DNA from: a virus
Strand: one strand, 5' to 3'
Virus record (IMG/VR): IMGVR_UViG_3300013101_002049
Span: 86,129-150,128 of that record
DNA: 64,000 nucleotides
Position numbers and translations under genes: made by a program. Of this stretch, positions 37,369 to 41,174 are shown in pieces. Under the pieces are notes generated by a model. It searched no databases, was not told the origin of the DNA, and saw only the letters and a list, made by a program, of their open reading frames with translations. The first letter of the stretch is position 1; each line of letters opens with the position of its first letter.

Positions 37369-39354
37369 ATGATAAAGAAGAGAAGGAAAGGTGATTTAAA
37401 TGTTGCATATCGACCTTACCGCATTGATGAGGTATTTGGTCATGATCGTATAAAAAATATGATCTCGGGATATTTAGAAAATGCTACATTACCACATGCC
37501 TCATTGTTTACTGGACCAGCAGGTTGTGTGGATTGCGATACTGAATTTTTTACTGGTTATGGTTGGAAAAAGATTTCCGAATACACTGATGGTGATTTAG
37601 TAATGCAGTATGATACTGCTACTAAGATAGCATCGTTAGTTAAACCGTTTAGGTATATAAAGAAGCCAGTAGATAAATTATTTCATTTTAAAACTAAATA
37701 TGGATTGGATCAGTGTTTAAGTAAAGATCATAGGGTATTATATTCATTACGAAAAAGTGGTTTACATACTGATAGTTTTGAGTCAATAATAAACACACAC
37801 AATACTAATAAGTATGGTTTTAATGGTAAATTTTTAACATCGTTTAATTTAGATGCATCTGCTGGTATTGATATGTGTTCCGCGGATTTACGTGTAATGG
37901 TTATGATAATTGCTGATGCAACTATTGACCCTAATAGAACAAAGTGTTGTCTTAATTTAAAAAAGAAAAGAAAAATAGAACGTGCTCATAAATTATTAAA
38001 CGAGGCAGGTATTGAATATTCTACATTAACCCAGGGTGATTATACACGATTTTATTTTATACCTCCAATTAGAACTAAGGAATTTGATAGTTACTTTTAT
38101 GGTTGTAATGCCAATCAATTAGAGACTATATCATCTGAGGTGGTTTTGTGGGATGGTGATCAAAATAATATTTTCTTTACAACATCTAAACAAAGTGCAG
38201 ATTTTATACAATATGCATTTACTGCTTCTGGTTATAGAGCTTCGATAAATATTGATGATAGGCGAATAAATAATAGGTCTATTACTTACAGGGTTATCAG
38301 ATCTACTAGTACTGTTTGCGGATTTAGTACTGTGGCCGATAGAAAGACTGTTATTTCTGAATATACACCAATAGATGGTTATCAATATTGTTTTACAGTT
38401 CCATCATCTTATTTAGTACTTAGAAGAAATAATTGCATATTTATAACTGGTAATTGTGGTAAAACGACTTTTGCTAGGATAGTTGCTTTAGGTTTGAATT
38501 GTGAAACAGGTGTTACATCTAATCCATGTTGTGAATGTTCTACATGTAAAAGTATTATAGCATTGAATAGTCTTTCAGTATTAGAGTTAGATGGTGCAAG
38601 AACAGGAAATGTTGATACTGTCAAACGTGTATTAAATGATTTACCCGCGGCTCCCTTTGGTAATGATAGAGTGCGGGTATTAATTCTTGATGAGGCGCAT
38701 AAACTTAGTGACGCCGCAGAGGATTCCCTCCTAAAGTTTTTAGAAGACACACCTGCTCATGTGTATATTATATTATGTACCAATGAGCCTCAAAAACTTA
38801 AAGAAGCCATTCGACAGCGTTGTAAAATGATTCAATTTAGTAGATTGGAGCGCAAACCTATATATGAGTTATTAGAACAAGTTGCGCAGTTTGAAGGTAT
38901 GAATTATAACTCAAAAATTCTTAATAAAATTACTGAGGAATGCGAAGGGACACCGCGTATAGCGTTGTCTTTTTTACAGCAGATTAATGCTGAAGGTAGT
39001 TGGACGAATGAAGCGGTTGGTTTTATTTTAAGTGCTGGCCTCGAAGCAGATCAACAAGAAGTTATAGATATGTGTAGATTGTTAGTTAAGAATCATGGCC
39101 AATGGCAACCAGTTCAAAATATTTTTTTGAAGTTGGTTAAAAAAATTCCAGTAGAAACTATGCGTATAGCGGCTACTGGATTTTTATCTGGATGTTTTAA
39201 GAGATCGACTTCCATTGAAGATGCAACTCGTTACGCTAAATGTGTAGAGTTAGTTGGGCAGTTATATTATGGACCTAAGCCCGAGCATATGTTATTGATG
39301 AAATTGTTTCGGAGTTATAATATTATACATTCGGGGAAGGATATATGGACATAA
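37369..39354 (+). CDS. dnaX: DNA polymerase III gamma/tau clamp-loader subunit containing an intein
   Basis: YRP, GPAG|CGKTT Walker A after splicing, LNC...PCCECSTC, LDEAH, RQRC. Confidence 0.88.
   Translation: MIKKRRKGDLNVAYRPYRIDEVFGHDRIKNMISGYLENATLPHASLFTGPAGCVDCDTEFFTGYGWKKISEYTDGDLVMQYDTATKIASLVKPFRYIKKPVDKLFHFKTKYGLDQCLSKDHRVLYSLRKSGLHTDSFESIINTHNTNKYGFNGKFLTSFNLDASAGIDMCSADLRVMVMIIADATIDPNRTKCCLNLKKKRKIERAHKLLNEAGIEYSTLTQGDYTRFYFIPPIRTKEFDSYFYGCNANQLETISSEVVLWDGDQNNIFFTTSKQSADFIQYAFTASGYRASINIDDRRINNRSITYRVIRSTSTVCGFSTVADRKTVISEYTPIDGYQYCFTVPSSYLVLRRNNCIFITGNCGKTTFARIVALGLNCETGVTSNPCCECSTCKSIIALNSLSVLELDGARTGNVDTVKRVLNDLPAAPFGNDRVRVLILDEAHKLSDAAEDSLLKFLEDTPAHVYIILCTNEPQKLKEAIRQRCKMIQFSRLERKPIYELLEQVAQFEGMNYNSKILNKITEECEGTPRIALSFLQQINAEGSWTNEAVGFILSAGLEADQQEVIDMCRLLVKNHGQWQPVQNIFLKLVKKIPVETMRIAATGFLSGCFKRSTSIEDATRYAKCVELVGQLYYGPKPEHMLLMKLFRSYNIIHSGKDIWT
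37525..38454 (+). mobile_element. intein in the DnaX P-loop (310 aa, degenerate LAGLIDADG)
   Basis: Starts CVDCDT, ends FITGN followed by Cys; SKDHRV block B; MIIADA and LWDG blocks. Confidence 0.9.
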
Positions 39355-41174
39355 GTTATGATAATGGATTGCCGGACCTTCCGCCACCAAATTATCAATA
39401 CATTACAAATACTGAAGAAGCTTTAAAAGTATTACCTGAAATTGAAAGGTACGATTTGATTGAAGTGGATACAGAGACAACTGCTTTGGATCCATTTATG
39501 GCGAAAATAGTACTAATTCAAATAGGCGTGCTTGGTAAATCTTACGTGTTTGATGTTCGTGATGGTAATGTTCGTGCGGAAGTTTTGAAATCGTTATTAG
39601 AAGGCGATGGTTCTTTAAAACTTTTACAAAATGCTGCTTATGATTTTGAGGTACTAAAAACTAATTTTGATATCGAGTTAAATCGTATTTATGATACAAT
39701 GTTAGTTGAACAGTTGTTGTATTTAGGATTACATCAGAAAGCAAGTTTGGACCATTTAGTTGGTAAATATTTACATATGAAGATGCCTAAAGATATTGCA
39801 ACTTCGTTTGTTAATTATCATCAAAAATATCAAGAATACCAACTTAGATACGCGGCGAATGATGTTTCAGTTTTGCGTGACATTTATAACATGCAGATGC
39901 CTAAGTTACGTCAAGATGGTTTGATGCGAGTTGCTAAATTAGAATTTGATTTTATTAAACCATTAGCAGAAATGGAATTAAATGGAATGTTGTTAGATGT
40001 TCCTCAATGGCGTAATATTCTTAATGATATGGTTGTTGAAAGAGATAGATTACGTATTCAGTTAGGAAGTGTATTTGAAGATACTATTGATCAGACTACG
40101 TTATTTGGTGTATCATTGATGAATTTAGATAGTCCTGCACAGGTTATTAAAGGGCTACAAAAAGTAGGTGTTTATGTTGATAGTACGGATGTTAAGGAGT
40201 TAAATAAACATAAGAAAAATCCAGTTGTAAAATTGTTATTGGAATATCGTAAATATGAAAAGTTCATCACTACATATGGTGAGCCGATGATTGATCGTAT
40301 TCATCCAAAGACTGGTAGATTACATACCAAATTTAAGCAGATGGTTGACACTGGTAGAATGAGTTCTTCAAATCCTAATTTACAAAATATTCCAAAAGAG
40401 CAGAAATATAGGTCTTGTTTTATCGCTCGACCAGGGTATAAGATTATTACGTGTGATATGAGCGCCGCGGAACTTCGTATCATTGCTAATTTGTCACGTG
40501 ATCCATTATGGGTTAAGATATTTAACGAAGGTGGTGATTTACATACTGTTTCTGCTGCTGGTATTTATGGAATATCTGAAGATGAAGTAATGGCTGATAA
40601 AAAACTGGATGATGAAGATCCAAATAAAAAGAATTATAGATCTAATTCCAAACCTATTTCTTTTGGTTTGGCTTATGGACTTTCAGAACATGGATTGTCT
40701 TTACGTCTTGGTATTTCTAAAGATGAAGCTAAAAAGATGATTTTGAATTATTTTAAAAAATATCCTTTAGTTCATAAATTTTTGGAAGAATCTGGTCGTA
40801 ATGCTGTGTTGAATAGATTTTCTGCATCTATTAGTGGGCGCAGACGGTATTATACTTTACCTGACCCCACTGATCCAGATTTTAAGAAAATTCGTGGTGC
40901 TATTGAAAGGCAAGGTAAAAATATGCCAATTCAAGCGGCAAATGCTGATACAATAAAACAAGCCATGATTCATGTTACTGAAAGAATTAAACCGTATGAT
41001 GCTCGTTTGTTATTAACGGTGCATGATGAAGTTATAGTTGAAGCTCGAGAGGATCAAGTAGAAGAAGTTAAACCTATTGTAGAACAATCTGTTAAAGACG
41101 GGTTTGATGATTTTTTCGAGTTAGTTAAAATGAAAGCTGGCGCTGATGTAGCTAATCATTGGGTGAAAGGGTAG
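39345..41174 (+). CDS. polA: family A DNA polymerase (3'-5' exonuclease + polymerase, no 5' nuclease)
   Basis: VDTET, YDTM, YAAND; TGRMSSSNPNLQNIP, DMSAAELR, KPISFGLAYG, VHDE. Confidence 0.92.
   Translation: MDISYDNGLPDLPPPNYQYITNTEEALKVLPEIERYDLIEVDTETTALDPFMAKIVLIQIGVLGKSYVFDVRDGNVRAEVLKSLLEGDGSLKLLQNAAYDFEVLKTNFDIELNRIYDTMLVEQLLYLGLHQKASLDHLVGKYLHMKMPKDIATSFVNYHQKYQEYQLRYAANDVSVLRDIYNMQMPKLRQDGLMRVAKLEFDFIKPLAEMELNGMLLDVPQWRNILNDMVVERDRLRIQLGSVFEDTIDQTTLFGVSLMNLDSPAQVIKGLQKVGVYVDSTDVKELNKHKKNPVVKLLLEYRKYEKFITTYGEPMIDRIHPKTGRLHTKFKQMVDTGRMSSSNPNLQNIPKEQKYRSCFIARPGYKIITCDMSAAELRIIANLSRDPLWVKIFNEGGDLHTVSAAGIYGISEDEVMADKKLDDEDPNKKNYRSNSKPISFGLAYGLSEHGLSLRLGISKDEAKKMILNYFKKYPLVHKFLEESGRNAVLNRFSASISGRRRYYTLPDPTDPDFKKIRGAIERQGKNMPIQAANADTIKQAMIHVTERIKPYDARLLLTVHDEVIVEAREDQVEEVKPIVEQSVKDGFDDFFELVKMKAGADVANHWVKG

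What the first reader, a model, noticed from the sequence alone, without database searches (positions are those of the whole stretch)
39345..41174. Family A polymerase with a QTTLF clamp-binding motif, encoded with its own DnaN and DnaX
Seen: PolA lacks the 5' nuclease, lies directly after dnaX and has DQTTLF (40092-40106) just before the thumb NLDSPAQ motif. dnaN, dnaB and dnaG are in the window; no family B or C polymerase is. Known: QL[S/D]LF-like peptides bind bacterial beta clamps, and T7 gp5 carries its thioredoxin-binding processivity insertion in the thumb. Inference: a hybrid replisome in which a Pol I-type enzyme gains processivity from a phage beta clamp via a thumb-tip motif, with RNase HII possibly helping primer removal.
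Basis: partly seen in the sequence, partly recalled or inferred. Interest (0 to 1): 0.7.

Follow-up and report, generated by a model that had tools for sequence, protein, structure and literature searches.

The report
Phage Pol I with thumb-tip clamp-binding motif
A large uncultured phage encodes a Pol I-type DNA polymerase whose thumb tip carries a strictly conserved sliding-clamp-binding peptide, so this normally short-range enzyme probably becomes the phage's main replicase by riding on the phage's own ring-shaped clamp.

Summary
The ORF at 39345-41174 is a 609-aa family A polymerase with an exonuclease and a polymerase domain and no 5' nuclease. It overlaps the end of an intein-bearing dnaX. 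QTTLF is residues 250-254 (nt 40092-40106). dnaN, dnaB and dnaG are in the window.

No family B or C polymerase was found in the 150-kb phage record (about 57% complete) or in nine related contigs.

- The motif lies in the flexible loop at the thumb tip, where T7 polymerase carries its thioredoxin-binding insert.
- Q250 and F254 are invariant in 121 homologues, while the residues just upstream vary freely.
- Cellular Pol I enzymes have AGxxF at this position.
- 79 of 148 distant representatives carry Qxx[LMI]F there, against 0.26% of control windows.
- A complex model places residues 249-256 in the canonical cleft of the phage DnaN (score 0.68, best control 0.00).
- The gene directly after dnaN starts with DQTNLF, a second conserved clamp motif.

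PolA+DnaN+DnaX phages were noted in 2011, and a QxxLF motif in actinobacterial PolA2 in 2026. A thumb-tip motif was not found in the literature searched. I class this as a new variant of a known kind. Binding is not yet shown experimentally. Another first-stage note on this genome (e1-5703051) flagged the same motif.

The parts
39345..41174 (+). polA: 609-aa family A DNA polymerase (3'-5' exonuclease + polymerase, no 5' nuclease)
   Evidence: Pfam PF01612 and PF00476. AF2 model with pLDDT 90.4. Foldseek matches to Klenow fragment and apicoplast Pol at TM 0.81-0.84. Exo residues D42/E44/D100/Y169/D173 and pol residues D371, R432/K436/Y444 and H560-D561-E562 are invariant.
40077..40133 (+). Thumb-tip loop (residues 245-263) between thumb helices H (219-244) and H1 (264-273)
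   Evidence: Non-helical in the AF2 model, with block pLDDT of 67-73 against more than 90 elsewhere. T7's TBD also lies on the thumb tip and precedes helix H1 (PMC10201439).
40092..40106 (+). QTTLF (residues 250-254): predicted beta-clamp-binding motif. The conserved island is D249-L258 (nt 40089-40118), consensus D-Q-x-T-L-F-G-V-S-L.
   Evidence: In 121 sequences: Q 121, T252 118, L253 113 (plus 5 M and 3 I), F 121. Flanking residues 241-248 have entropy 1.0-3.4 bits, most of them about 2 or more. Residues 249-256 form the interface with DnaN in the complex model.
37369..39354 (+). dnaX-like clamp-loader ATPase, interrupted by an intein in the P-loop (GPAG|C...N|CGKTT)
   Evidence: Pfam DNA_pol3_delta2, TIGR02397 at 4.3e-54 and phrog_5846. 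It is the only clamp-loader-type gene found in the 150 kb.
11466..12596 (+). dnaN: 376-aa beta sliding clamp
   Evidence: All three Pfam beta-clamp domains match. TIGR00663 matches over the full length at 8.4e-30, and phrog_947 matches. A profile of the family matches solved beta clamps. The residues that contact the motif in the model are enriched in invariant columns: 10 of 22 against 2 expected, p = 3e-6.
12596..13162 (+). 188-aa protein of no known family, encoded directly after dnaN, with an N-terminal DQTNLF (residues 4-9; QTNLF = nt 12608-12622): a second predicted clamp client
   Evidence: It is one of only four Qxx[LMI]F matches in 87 ORFs. A gene of similar size follows dnaN in 8 related contigs. 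Most of its 33 homologues keep an N-terminal D-Q-x-D-[LIMVA]-F-[SAG]-x-G-K-S. It has no Pfam or PDB fold match.
15279..16733 (+). dnaB-type replicative helicase
   Evidence: Pfam DnaB and DnaB_C
16645..17736 (+). dnaG-type primase
   Evidence: Pfam Toprim_4, DNAG_N and Zn_ribbon_DnaG
46275..47981 (+). RNase HII with a LAGLIDADG intein (possible role in primer removal, untested)
   Evidence: Pfam RNase_HII, LAGLIDADG_3 and Intein_splicing. No FEN-type 5' nuclease was found in the 150 kb.

Best explanation
The PolA of this large (jumbo-size by estimate) phage is a proofreading, Klenow-like enzyme. Its thumb-tip loop (residues 245-263) carries a short linear motif, D-Q-x-T-L-F-G-V-S, of the bacterial beta-clamp-binding type (QL[SD]LF, QxxLF). 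The proposed mechanism has four steps. First, the phage DnaX ATPase loads the phage DnaN ring on primed DNA, possibly helped by the small protein encoded after dnaN, which has its own N-terminal Q-x-D-L-F. Second, the PolA thumb tip lies next to the duplex leaving the active site. Third, it inserts L253 and F254 into the hydrophobic cleft between domains II and III of one DnaN protomer. Fourth, the polymerase is thereby tethered topologically to DNA and becomes processive enough to serve as the phage replicase alongside the phage DnaB and DnaG. This is the same site and the same logic as the thioredoxin-binding insert of T7 gp5, but it uses a 5-9 residue peptide and a ring clamp. Shown by computation: domain content, motif position, conservation, co-occurrence with dnaN, the lack of another polymerase in the DNA available, and a modelled interface. 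Inferred: actual binding, gain of processivity and the replicase role.
For: (1) Position. In the AF2 model the motif lies in the loop between thumb helices H and H1, with lower pLDDT. The T7 TBD is on the thumb tip and precedes H1 (PMC10201439).
(2) Conservation. Q250 and F254 are invariant, T252 is 118/121 and L253 is L, M or I in 121/121. Residues 241-248 are mostly variable.
(3) The motif is an add-on. About 70 cellular Pol I homologues have AGxxFNxNSPKQ with no QxxLF upstream.
(4) Wider clade. 79 of 148 representatives of 50%-identity clusters have Qxx[LMI]F in the thumb-tip window, against 10 of 3846 control windows in the same proteins. Many read QLSLF, QLDLF or QVDLF, which is the canonical consensus. 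The extended Q-x-x-L-F-G-V matches the internal motif peptide IGQADMFGV of E. coli Pol III alpha (PMC11139829).
(5) Complex model of two DnaN copies with PolA 215-320: score 0.68, best of 3 controls 0.00. That mark was reached by 58 of 80 solved complexes and 2 of 110 mismatched pairs. The runs agree in at least 95% of contacts and the partner's pLDDT is at least 79. The interface is PolA 249-256 with DnaN 185-190, 255, 257, 329, 355 and 369-376. These align with the canonical T-x-G-x-x-L, P..Y and C-terminal cleft elements of solved clamps and are enriched in invariant columns (p = 3e-6).
(6) Co-occurrence. dnaN is on 8 of 9 related IMG/VR contigs; in the ninth, polA lies 4.5 kb from the contig end. 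Several metagenome PolA and DnaN homologues have longest contigs of identical length, which suggests they lie on the same contigs.
(7) No DnaE or PolB was found in this record or in relatives that together span about 125 kb upstream and 133 kb downstream of polA.
(8) Independent second client. The gene abutting dnaN begins with DQTNLF, and most of its homologues keep Q-x-D-L-F.
(9) Ralstonia phage RSL1 is known to have PolA, a beta homologue and a gamma homologue (PMC3201878). Its PolA has AKSLFGGVS at the equivalent place.
Against: There is no experimental binding or processivity data. Many beta-clamp-peptide complexes have been solved, so the complex model may pass from memory: it shows that motif and pocket fit the known mode, not that this pair binds. 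The job also used two copies of one chain and my own alignments, so the calibration counts hold only roughly. The record is about 57% complete, so a second polymerase in the missing part is not excluded for this phage. The motif does not track phage-encoded dnaN cleanly. Thumb-tip QxDLF occurs in a 98%-complete, 99-kb phage with no detectable dnaN (G013), and two DnaN-encoding phages (G032, G038) have PolAs without it. Only one clamp-loader gene was recognised, and no delta or delta'. The thumb tip also touches DNA in family A polymerases, so some of the conservation could serve DNA binding.
Confidence: 0.65

Rival explanations
1. The motif does bind the clamp, but PolA is not the replicase. 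The phage clamp and loader recruit the host Pol III for bulk synthesis. PolA, tethered to the same clamp, fills gaps, matures Okazaki fragments or repairs DNA, as E. coli Pol I does when stimulated by beta.
For: E. coli Pol I is a documented beta-clamp partner (PMC11139829 Table 1; PMC3201878). The record is only about 57% complete. Only one clamp-loader gene is present, which could mean host subunits are borrowed.
Against: The enzyme lacks the 5' nuclease needed for Pol I-type maturation. The phage encodes its own DnaB, DnaG, DnaN and DnaX but no other polymerase, either in the 150 kb or in nine related contigs. The proofreading and polymerase motifs are invariant. Phages of this size were reported always to encode their own replicative polymerase (PMC3201878).
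Confidence: 0.15
2. The conserved Q-x-T-L-F-G-V-S loop is a structural or DNA-contacting element of the thumb, or a docking site for another partner such as the helicase, primase or SSB. On this reading its likeness to a clamp-binding motif is coincidental.
For: The thumb tip contacts the duplex in family A polymerases (established knowledge). One QxxLF per protein is not rare by chance (0.08 expected; the looser pattern 0.67). Some phages with the motif have no detectable dnaN.
Against: The loop is modelled as flexible, not packed. Diverged clades converge on the exact clamp consensus QL[SD]LF at this one site, about 200-fold above background. A second protein, encoded next to dnaN, carries the same motif at its N-terminus. 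The complex model uses the canonical cleft, with controls at 0.00. Phages without dnaN can use the host clamp.
Confidence: 0.1
3. The motif is aimed mainly at the host beta clamp. The purpose would be to use it as the processivity factor or to compete host proteins off it. The phage DnaN would then serve another purpose or act as a back-up.
For: The same thumb-tip motif occurs in phages with no recognisable dnaN: G013 (QLDLF), an IAS crAss-like virus (QGDIF) and Pseudanabaena phage PA-SR01 (KKDLF). The motif matches the general bacterial consensus.
Against: In this lineage dnaN is consistently co-encoded. Its cleft residues are invariant. The model docks the motif into the phage clamp with high confidence. 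The host is unknown, so host-clamp binding could not be modelled.
Confidence: 0.1

Closest known systems
T7 gp5 DNA polymerase with its thioredoxin-binding domain (TBD)
   Same: Both are family A replicases without a 5' nuclease. In both, the processivity determinant lies at the thumb tip, before helix H1, next to the exiting duplex (PMC10201439; model).
   Different: T7 uses an insert of about 70 residues that binds host thioredoxin. Here the loop is only 19 residues, with a 5-9 residue linear motif, and the predicted partner is a ring-shaped, phage-encoded beta clamp loaded by a DnaX ATPase.
Phages Ma-LMM01 and RSL1: PolA + polIII-beta homologue + polIII-gamma homologue (Kazlauskas & Venclovas 2011, PMC3201878)
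   Same: They have the same gene set, and that paper proposed that the beta homologue acts as the processivity factor for PolA. RSL1 PolA has AKSLFGGVS at the equivalent thumb position.
   Different: That paper did not identify a clamp-binding motif in the PolAs. The present lineage is only about 25-30% identical to known phage PolAs. It also has an intein in dnaX and a second motif-bearing protein next to dnaN.
Actinobacterial PolA2/APEX with a QxxLF motif (PMC12926913, 2026)
   Same: It is a family A polymerase with a QxxLF motif in an unstructured loop, modelled into the beta-clamp cleft.
   Different: In PolA2 the motif is in a loop of a vestigial, inactive 3'-5' exonuclease domain of a cellular, presumably low-fidelity repair enzyme. 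Here the exonuclease motifs are intact, the motif is at the thumb tip, and the enzyme is the only polymerase of a phage.
E. coli Pol III alpha internal clamp-binding motif (QADMF, peptide IGQADMFGV)
   Same: Both are internal rather than C-terminal motifs of a replicase, with the same Q-x-x-[LM]-F-G-V pattern.
   Different: It lies in an unrelated family C polymerase and at a different structural location.

Membership tests
Family A DNA polymerase (Klenow-like, exo+ pol+) | DNA_pol_A polymerase domain with motifs A, B and C | tested here: met
   PF00476 at E 2.4e-81. D371, R432/K436/Y444 and H560-D561-E562 are invariant.
Family A DNA polymerase (Klenow-like, exo+ pol+) | DEDD 3'-5' exonuclease domain with its catalytic acids | tested here: met
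   PF01612 at E 4.9e-25. D42, E44, D100, Y169 and D173 are invariant.
Family A DNA polymerase (Klenow-like, exo+ pol+) | Klenow fold | tested here: met
   AF2 pLDDT 90.4. Foldseek matches 1kfs, 9qsc and 8jrb at TM 0.81-0.86, E about 1e-38 to 1e-35.
Full-length bacterial Pol I | N-terminal FEN-like 5'-3' nuclease domain | tested here: not met
   There is no such domain in the 609-aa protein, and no PF02739 match anywhere in the 150 kb.
Beta-clamp-binding motif (QL[SD]LF / QxxLF) | Sequence pattern Q-x-x-[LMI]-F | tested here: met
   QTTLF at residues 250-254
Beta-clamp-binding motif (QL[SD]LF / QxxLF) | Lies in an exposed, flexible segment and is conserved as an island | tested here: met
   It lies in loop 245-263 with pLDDT 67-73. 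Q and F have entropy 0, against mostly about 2 bits or more for residues 241-248.
Beta-clamp-binding motif (QL[SD]LF / QxxLF) | Occupies the hydrophobic cleft between clamp domains II and III | tested here: met
   Met in a model only: score 0.68, best control 0.00; the mark was reached by 58 of 80 solved and 2 of 110 mismatched pairs; contacts are DnaN 185-190, 255, 257, 329 and 369-376. The pass may reflect likeness to solved clamp-peptide complexes.
Beta-clamp-binding motif (QL[SD]LF / QxxLF) | Measured binding that is lost on LF>AA mutation | not testable with these tools
   Needs biochemistry
Bacterial beta sliding clamp (DnaN) | Three-domain beta-clamp architecture | tested here: met
   PF00712, PF02767 and PF02768 match. 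TIGR00663 matches over positions 1-366 at E 8.4e-30, below the equivalog cut-off. A profile of the family matches solved clamps at E 2.7e-18.
T7-type thioredoxin-binding domain | Insert of about 50-76 residues at the thumb tip that binds thioredoxin | tested here: not met
   The loop is only 19 residues and holds no inserted domain. The site is the same, but the device is different.
PolA2 / APEX | Inactivated exonuclease domain that carries the QxxLF motif; found only in Actinobacteria | tested here: not met
   The exonuclease motifs are intact, the motif is in the thumb, and the source is a phage record.
Bacterial clamp loader (gamma/tau3-delta-delta') | DnaX ATPase plus delta and delta' subunits | tested here: inconclusive
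   DnaX is present. The only PF13177 and PF06144 matches in the 150 kb fall in dnaX itself. The record is incomplete, and the 188-aa protein after dnaN could be a lineage-specific subunit.

The most novel reading that the evidence does not exclude
A large, mostly viral clade of proofreading family A polymerases has repeatedly placed, or has retained, a canonical QL[SD]LF beta-clamp-binding peptide at the thumb tip, which is the site where T7 inserted its thioredoxin-binding domain. This would make clamp-riding Pol I-type replicases a common, unrecognised replisome design. It would use a phage-encoded DnaN in large phages such as this one and the host clamp in smaller ones, possibly including crAss-like phages. 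In this lineage the clamp would also have a new partner: a 188-aa protein of no known fold with an N-terminal Q-x-D-L-F, encoded next to dnaN. That protein could be the missing lineage-specific clamp-loader subunit, analogous to T4 gp62 or bacterial delta.
Probability: 0.45. Interest if true: 0.75.

Novelty: new variant of a known kind. Interest (0 to 1): 0.62.

Why it matters
Family A polymerases are usually seen as clamp-independent: Pol I works in short patches, T7 uses thioredoxin, and T5 and SPO1 rely on built-in features. A conserved clamp-binding peptide at the thumb tip would answer the question left open in 2011 of how PolA and a phage beta clamp cooperate in large phages. It would show a second, convergent use of the thumb tip for processivity. 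It also gives a simple design principle, a grafted 5-9 residue peptide plus a clamp, for making Pol I-type enzymes processive. The motif further serves as a sequence marker for predicting which uncultured phages depend on a phage or host sliding clamp. Finally, it points to a new clamp partner encoded next to dnaN.

Tried and rejected
1. Clean correlation of the motif with phage-encoded dnaN: rejected as a discriminator. The motif also occurs in PolAs of phages with no detectable dnaN (G013, 98% complete; G012; IAS virus; PA-SR01). Two DnaN-encoding phages (G032, G038) lack it at the thumb; their PolAs instead begin with M-[AP]-L-F-[EN]-V-P-K-R. TIGR00663 and phrog_947 also miss the known remote clamp of Ma-LMM01, so calls of 'no dnaN' are weak.
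2. Close cultured relatives: none. The best PolA identity in 50,697 phage records is about 32%.
3. Host assignment from MAG labels: rejected. Near-identical homologues are binned into Asgard, Hodarchaeales, Thermoplasmatales, Pirellulales, Saccharibacteria, Gribaldobacteria and WOR-3 MAGs. These labels are mutually inconsistent and probably reflect mis-binned phage contigs.
4. Function of the 188-aa protein after dnaN: no result. There is no Pfam hit, no Foldseek match (best E 1.2), and VIA-align Z is at most 5.9, which is noise for a helical protein. Weak hits to AAA+ lid domains and to delta (1jqj_C, Z 3.6) are not interpretable.
5. Other replisome parts in the 150 kb: no FEN-type 5' nuclease, NAD-dependent ligase or SSB (OB-fold) match, and no delta or delta'. 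The record is incomplete, so these absences are not conclusive.
6. The canonical downstream ..Q-L-x-x-[IV]-L-F of helix H1 in cellular Pol I (for example QTILF in the enterobacterial enzyme) was considered as the equivalent of the motif and rejected. It lies after the N-x-x-S-x-x-Q anchor, whereas the phage motif lies before it, in the loop.

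
Full report
**What is there**

The window is bases 86129-150128 of a 150,128-bp IMG/VR virus record that CheckV rates about 57% complete, which implies a genome of roughly 260 kb. It has about 32% G+C and nearly all genes are on the + strand.

The ORF at 39345-41174 encodes a 609-aa protein. It has a DEDD 3'-5' exonuclease domain (residues 17-183) and a family A polymerase domain (residues 257-606), and no 5' nuclease. Its start overlaps by 10 nt the stop of a dnaX-like clamp-loader gene (37369-39354). 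That gene is interrupted by an intein inside the P-loop.

Also in the window are dnaN (11466-12596), recA, dnaB (15279-16733) and dnaG (16645-17736). RNase HII, also with an intein, is at 46275-47981. QTTLF is residues 250-254, nt 40092-40106.

**Where the motif sits**

An AlphaFold2 model built on 34 homologues has mean pLDDT 90.4. It superposes on Klenow fragment, apicoplast Pol and Aquifex Pol I with TM 0.81-0.86.

The thumb helix H is residues 219-244 and helix H1 is 264-273. Residues 245-263 form a non-helical loop with lower confidence (block means 73 and 67). QTTLF is in the middle of this thumb-tip loop. In T7 polymerase the thioredoxin-binding domain is an insertion on the thumb tip that precedes H1 (PMC10201439). 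The site is therefore equivalent.

**Is it more than chance?**

An exact QxxLF is expected 0.08 times in a protein of this size and composition, so a single occurrence means little. Conservation settles the matter.

Among the query and its 120 best homologues (97% down to about 50% identity), the counts are: Q250 121/121, F254 121/121, T252 118/121, L253 always L, M or I. G255, V256 and S257 are each above 90%. The eight residues just upstream mostly have entropies of about 2 to 3.4 bits. This is the signature of a short linear motif in a loop.

About 70 cellular Pol I homologues have the familiar A-G-x-x-F-N-x-N-S-P-K-Q at this place, with no QxxLF upstream. The motif is therefore an addition specific to the phage-like clade.

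A profile search of 1.84 billion cluster representatives returned 150 diverse members of the wider clade. Of the 148 with a thumb-tip segment, 79 carry Qxx[LMI]F there. The same pattern occurs in only 10 of 3846 equal-sized control windows from the same proteins, an enrichment of about 200-fold. Many read QLSLF, QLDLF, QVDLF or QMDLF, which is the canonical beta-clamp consensus itself.

The extended pattern Q-x-x-L-F-G-V also matches the internal clamp-binding peptide of E. coli Pol III alpha, IGQADMFGV (PMC11139829).

**Does it fit the phage clamp?**

The DnaN has all three beta-clamp domains. It matches TIGR00663 end to end (E 8.4e-30, below the equivalog cut-off), and a profile of its family matches solved clamps.

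I modelled two copies of DnaN with PolA residues 215-320, both as alignments.
- The score was 0.68 and the best of 3 controls was 0.00.
- That mark was reached by 58 of 80 solved complexes and 2 of 110 mismatched pairs.
- The three runs agree in at least 95% of contacts, and the partner's pLDDT is at least 79.
- The confident contacts are PolA 249-256 (plus 234, 237-238 and 258) with DnaN 163-164, 168, 185-188, 190, 255, 257, 260, 290-291, 293, 329, 355, 369, 371-374 and 376.

By alignment to solved clamps, these DnaN residues include the T-x-G-x-x-L strand, the P..Y element and the C-terminal strand that build the canonical peptide cleft. Ten of the 22 contact residues are invariant in 40 DnaN homologues, against 2 expected (p = 3e-6).

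Two cautions apply. Many clamp-peptide complexes have been solved, so the pass may be from memory: it shows that motif and pocket fit the known binding mode, not that this pair binds. The job also differs from the tool's calibration.

**An independent second client**

Only four Qxx[LMI]F matches occur in the 87 + strand ORFs of the window. One is in PolA, one is inside the DnaX intein and one is in a 117-aa ORF. The fourth is at residues 5-9 of the 188-aa ORF at 12596-13162, which starts at the stop codon of dnaN: M-I-E-D-Q-T-N-L-F-S.

A gene of similar size follows dnaN in all eight related contigs that I fetched. Most of its 33 database homologues keep D-Q-x-D-[LIMVA]-F-[SAG]-x-G-K-S at the extreme N-terminus. 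The protein has no Pfam family and no convincing fold match.

A second conserved, canonical clamp motif, in a protein encoded beside the clamp gene, argues that this phage clamp reads Q-x-[DT]-L-F peptides. This evidence is independent of the polymerase. The protein may be a lineage-specific clamp-loader subunit, in the manner of T4 gp62 or bacterial delta. That would also explain why only one clamp-loader ATPase gene is found. This last point is speculation.

**Is PolA the replicase?**

No DnaE-type or family B polymerase is detectable in the 150 kb or in nine related IMG/VR contigs. The positions of polA on those contigs mean that together they cover about 125 kb upstream (this record) and about 133 kb downstream (G004). 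dnaN is present on 8 of the 9 related contigs. The ninth has polA 4.5 kb from its end, so dnaN would lie off the contig.

The exonuclease and polymerase catalytic residues are invariant. With phage DnaB, DnaG, DnaN and DnaX present, the simplest reading is a self-contained replisome with PolA as its polymerase. A closed genome is still needed to confirm this.

No FEN-type nuclease, NAD ligase or OB-fold SSB was found. How primers are removed is therefore open. RNase HII is a candidate and nothing more.

**Limits of the comparative test**

The result is mixed.
- Thumb-tip motifs also occur in phages with no detectable dnaN: QLDLF in G013 (99 kb, 98% complete), QADMF in G012, QGDIF in the crAss-like IAS virus, and KKDLF in Pseudanabaena phage PA-SR01. 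These phages could use the host clamp.
- Two DnaN-encoding phages (G032, G038) have PolAs without the thumb motif.
- Ralstonia phage RSL1, known to combine PolA, a beta homologue and a gamma homologue, has AKSLFGGVS at the equivalent position.
- The HMM searches miss the known remote clamp of Ma-LMM01, so negative calls are soft.

**Comparison with what is known**

Kazlauskas and Venclovas (2011, PMC3201878) found PolA plus polIII-beta plus polIII-gamma homologues in Ma-LMM01 and RSL1. They suggested that beta serves PolA, but they reported no motif and left the loader composition open.

A 2023 reclassification of family A polymerases lists thumb-tip insertions (the T7 TBD and a phiKMV insert of about 100 aa) but no clamp partner.

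A 2026 survey reports QxxLF in a loop of the dead exonuclease domain of actinobacterial PolA2. [quoted passage not shown]

My literature searches found no description of a clamp-binding motif at the thumb tip of phage PolAs. The library holds only open-access papers and bioRxiv preprints, so this is not proof of absence.

**Verdict**

It remains a prediction until binding and clamp-dependent processivity are measured.

It is a new variant of a known kind: clamp tethering through QxxLF, applied to a Pol I-type phage replicase at the T7 TBD site. It appears to be widespread rather than peculiar to this phage.

Noticed in passing
window 12596-13162 (+): A 188-aa protein of no known family starts at the dnaN stop codon and has an N-terminal DQTNLF. 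Most of its 33 homologues keep Q-x-D-[LIMVA]-F-[SAG]-x-G-K-S. It is a likely new clamp partner, perhaps a lineage-specific clamp-loader subunit. No fold match was found.
   Followed up: partly
window 37369-39354, 41560-44763, 46275-47981, 20116-22563: Four intein-bearing genes lie in one window: dnaX (in the P-loop), a ribonucleotide reductase (intein with HNH), RNase HII (LAGLIDADG) and a GT4 glycosyltransferase. Several PolA homologues of about 1040 aa also carry an intein (for example P0008, P0012, P0019).
   Followed up: no
L022 (G013, 99 kb, 98% complete), L021, L019, L028; L179 (IAS virus NC_049978); L091 (PA-SR01): Distant phage PolA clades carry QLDLF, QADMF, QQDLF, QGDIF or KKDLF at the same thumb-tip position, and no dnaN is detectable in the records searched. 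This suggests that smaller phages, possibly crAss-like ones, use the host beta clamp.
   Followed up: partly
L092 (Ralstonia phage RSL1, AB366653, PolA about 179.8-183.4 kb): RSL1 PolA has AKSLFGGVS just before its H1-equivalent segment. This is the same L-F-G-(G)-V-S core as here but without the Q. RSL1 is one of the two phages for which PolA+beta+gamma was noted in 2011.
   Followed up: partly
L064 (G032) and L073 (G038): Two DnaN-encoding phages have PolAs of 771-782 aa (stop-to-stop reading frames) without a thumb-tip motif. Both start with M-[AP]-L-F-[EN]-V-P-K-R, a possible N-terminal clamp-binding variant.
   Followed up: no
P0004, P0273, L097-L101: Close homologues of the PolA and of the dnaN-adjacent protein are deposited in MAGs labelled Asgardarchaeum, Hodarchaeales, Thermoplasmatales, Pirellulales, Saccharibacteria, Gribaldobacteria and WOR-3. 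The labels are mutually inconsistent, which points to phage contigs mis-binned into cellular MAGs.
   Followed up: no
window 45646-46272, 52436-53194, 55746-56582; 45113-45646, 51697-52455: There are three N6/N4 DNA methyltransferase genes or fragments and two radical-SAM genes downstream of the replication module. Together with dUTPase (41178-41606) and a thymidylate-synthase-like gene (10445-11098), they suggest possible DNA modification.
   Followed up: no
L102 (candidate division WWE3 MAG, 925-kb contig): A 620-aa PolA homologue (37% identity) with Q-M-N-L-F-G at the thumb tip lies on a long CPR bacterial contig. It may be a prophage or a cellular acquisition of this polymerase type.
   Followed up: no
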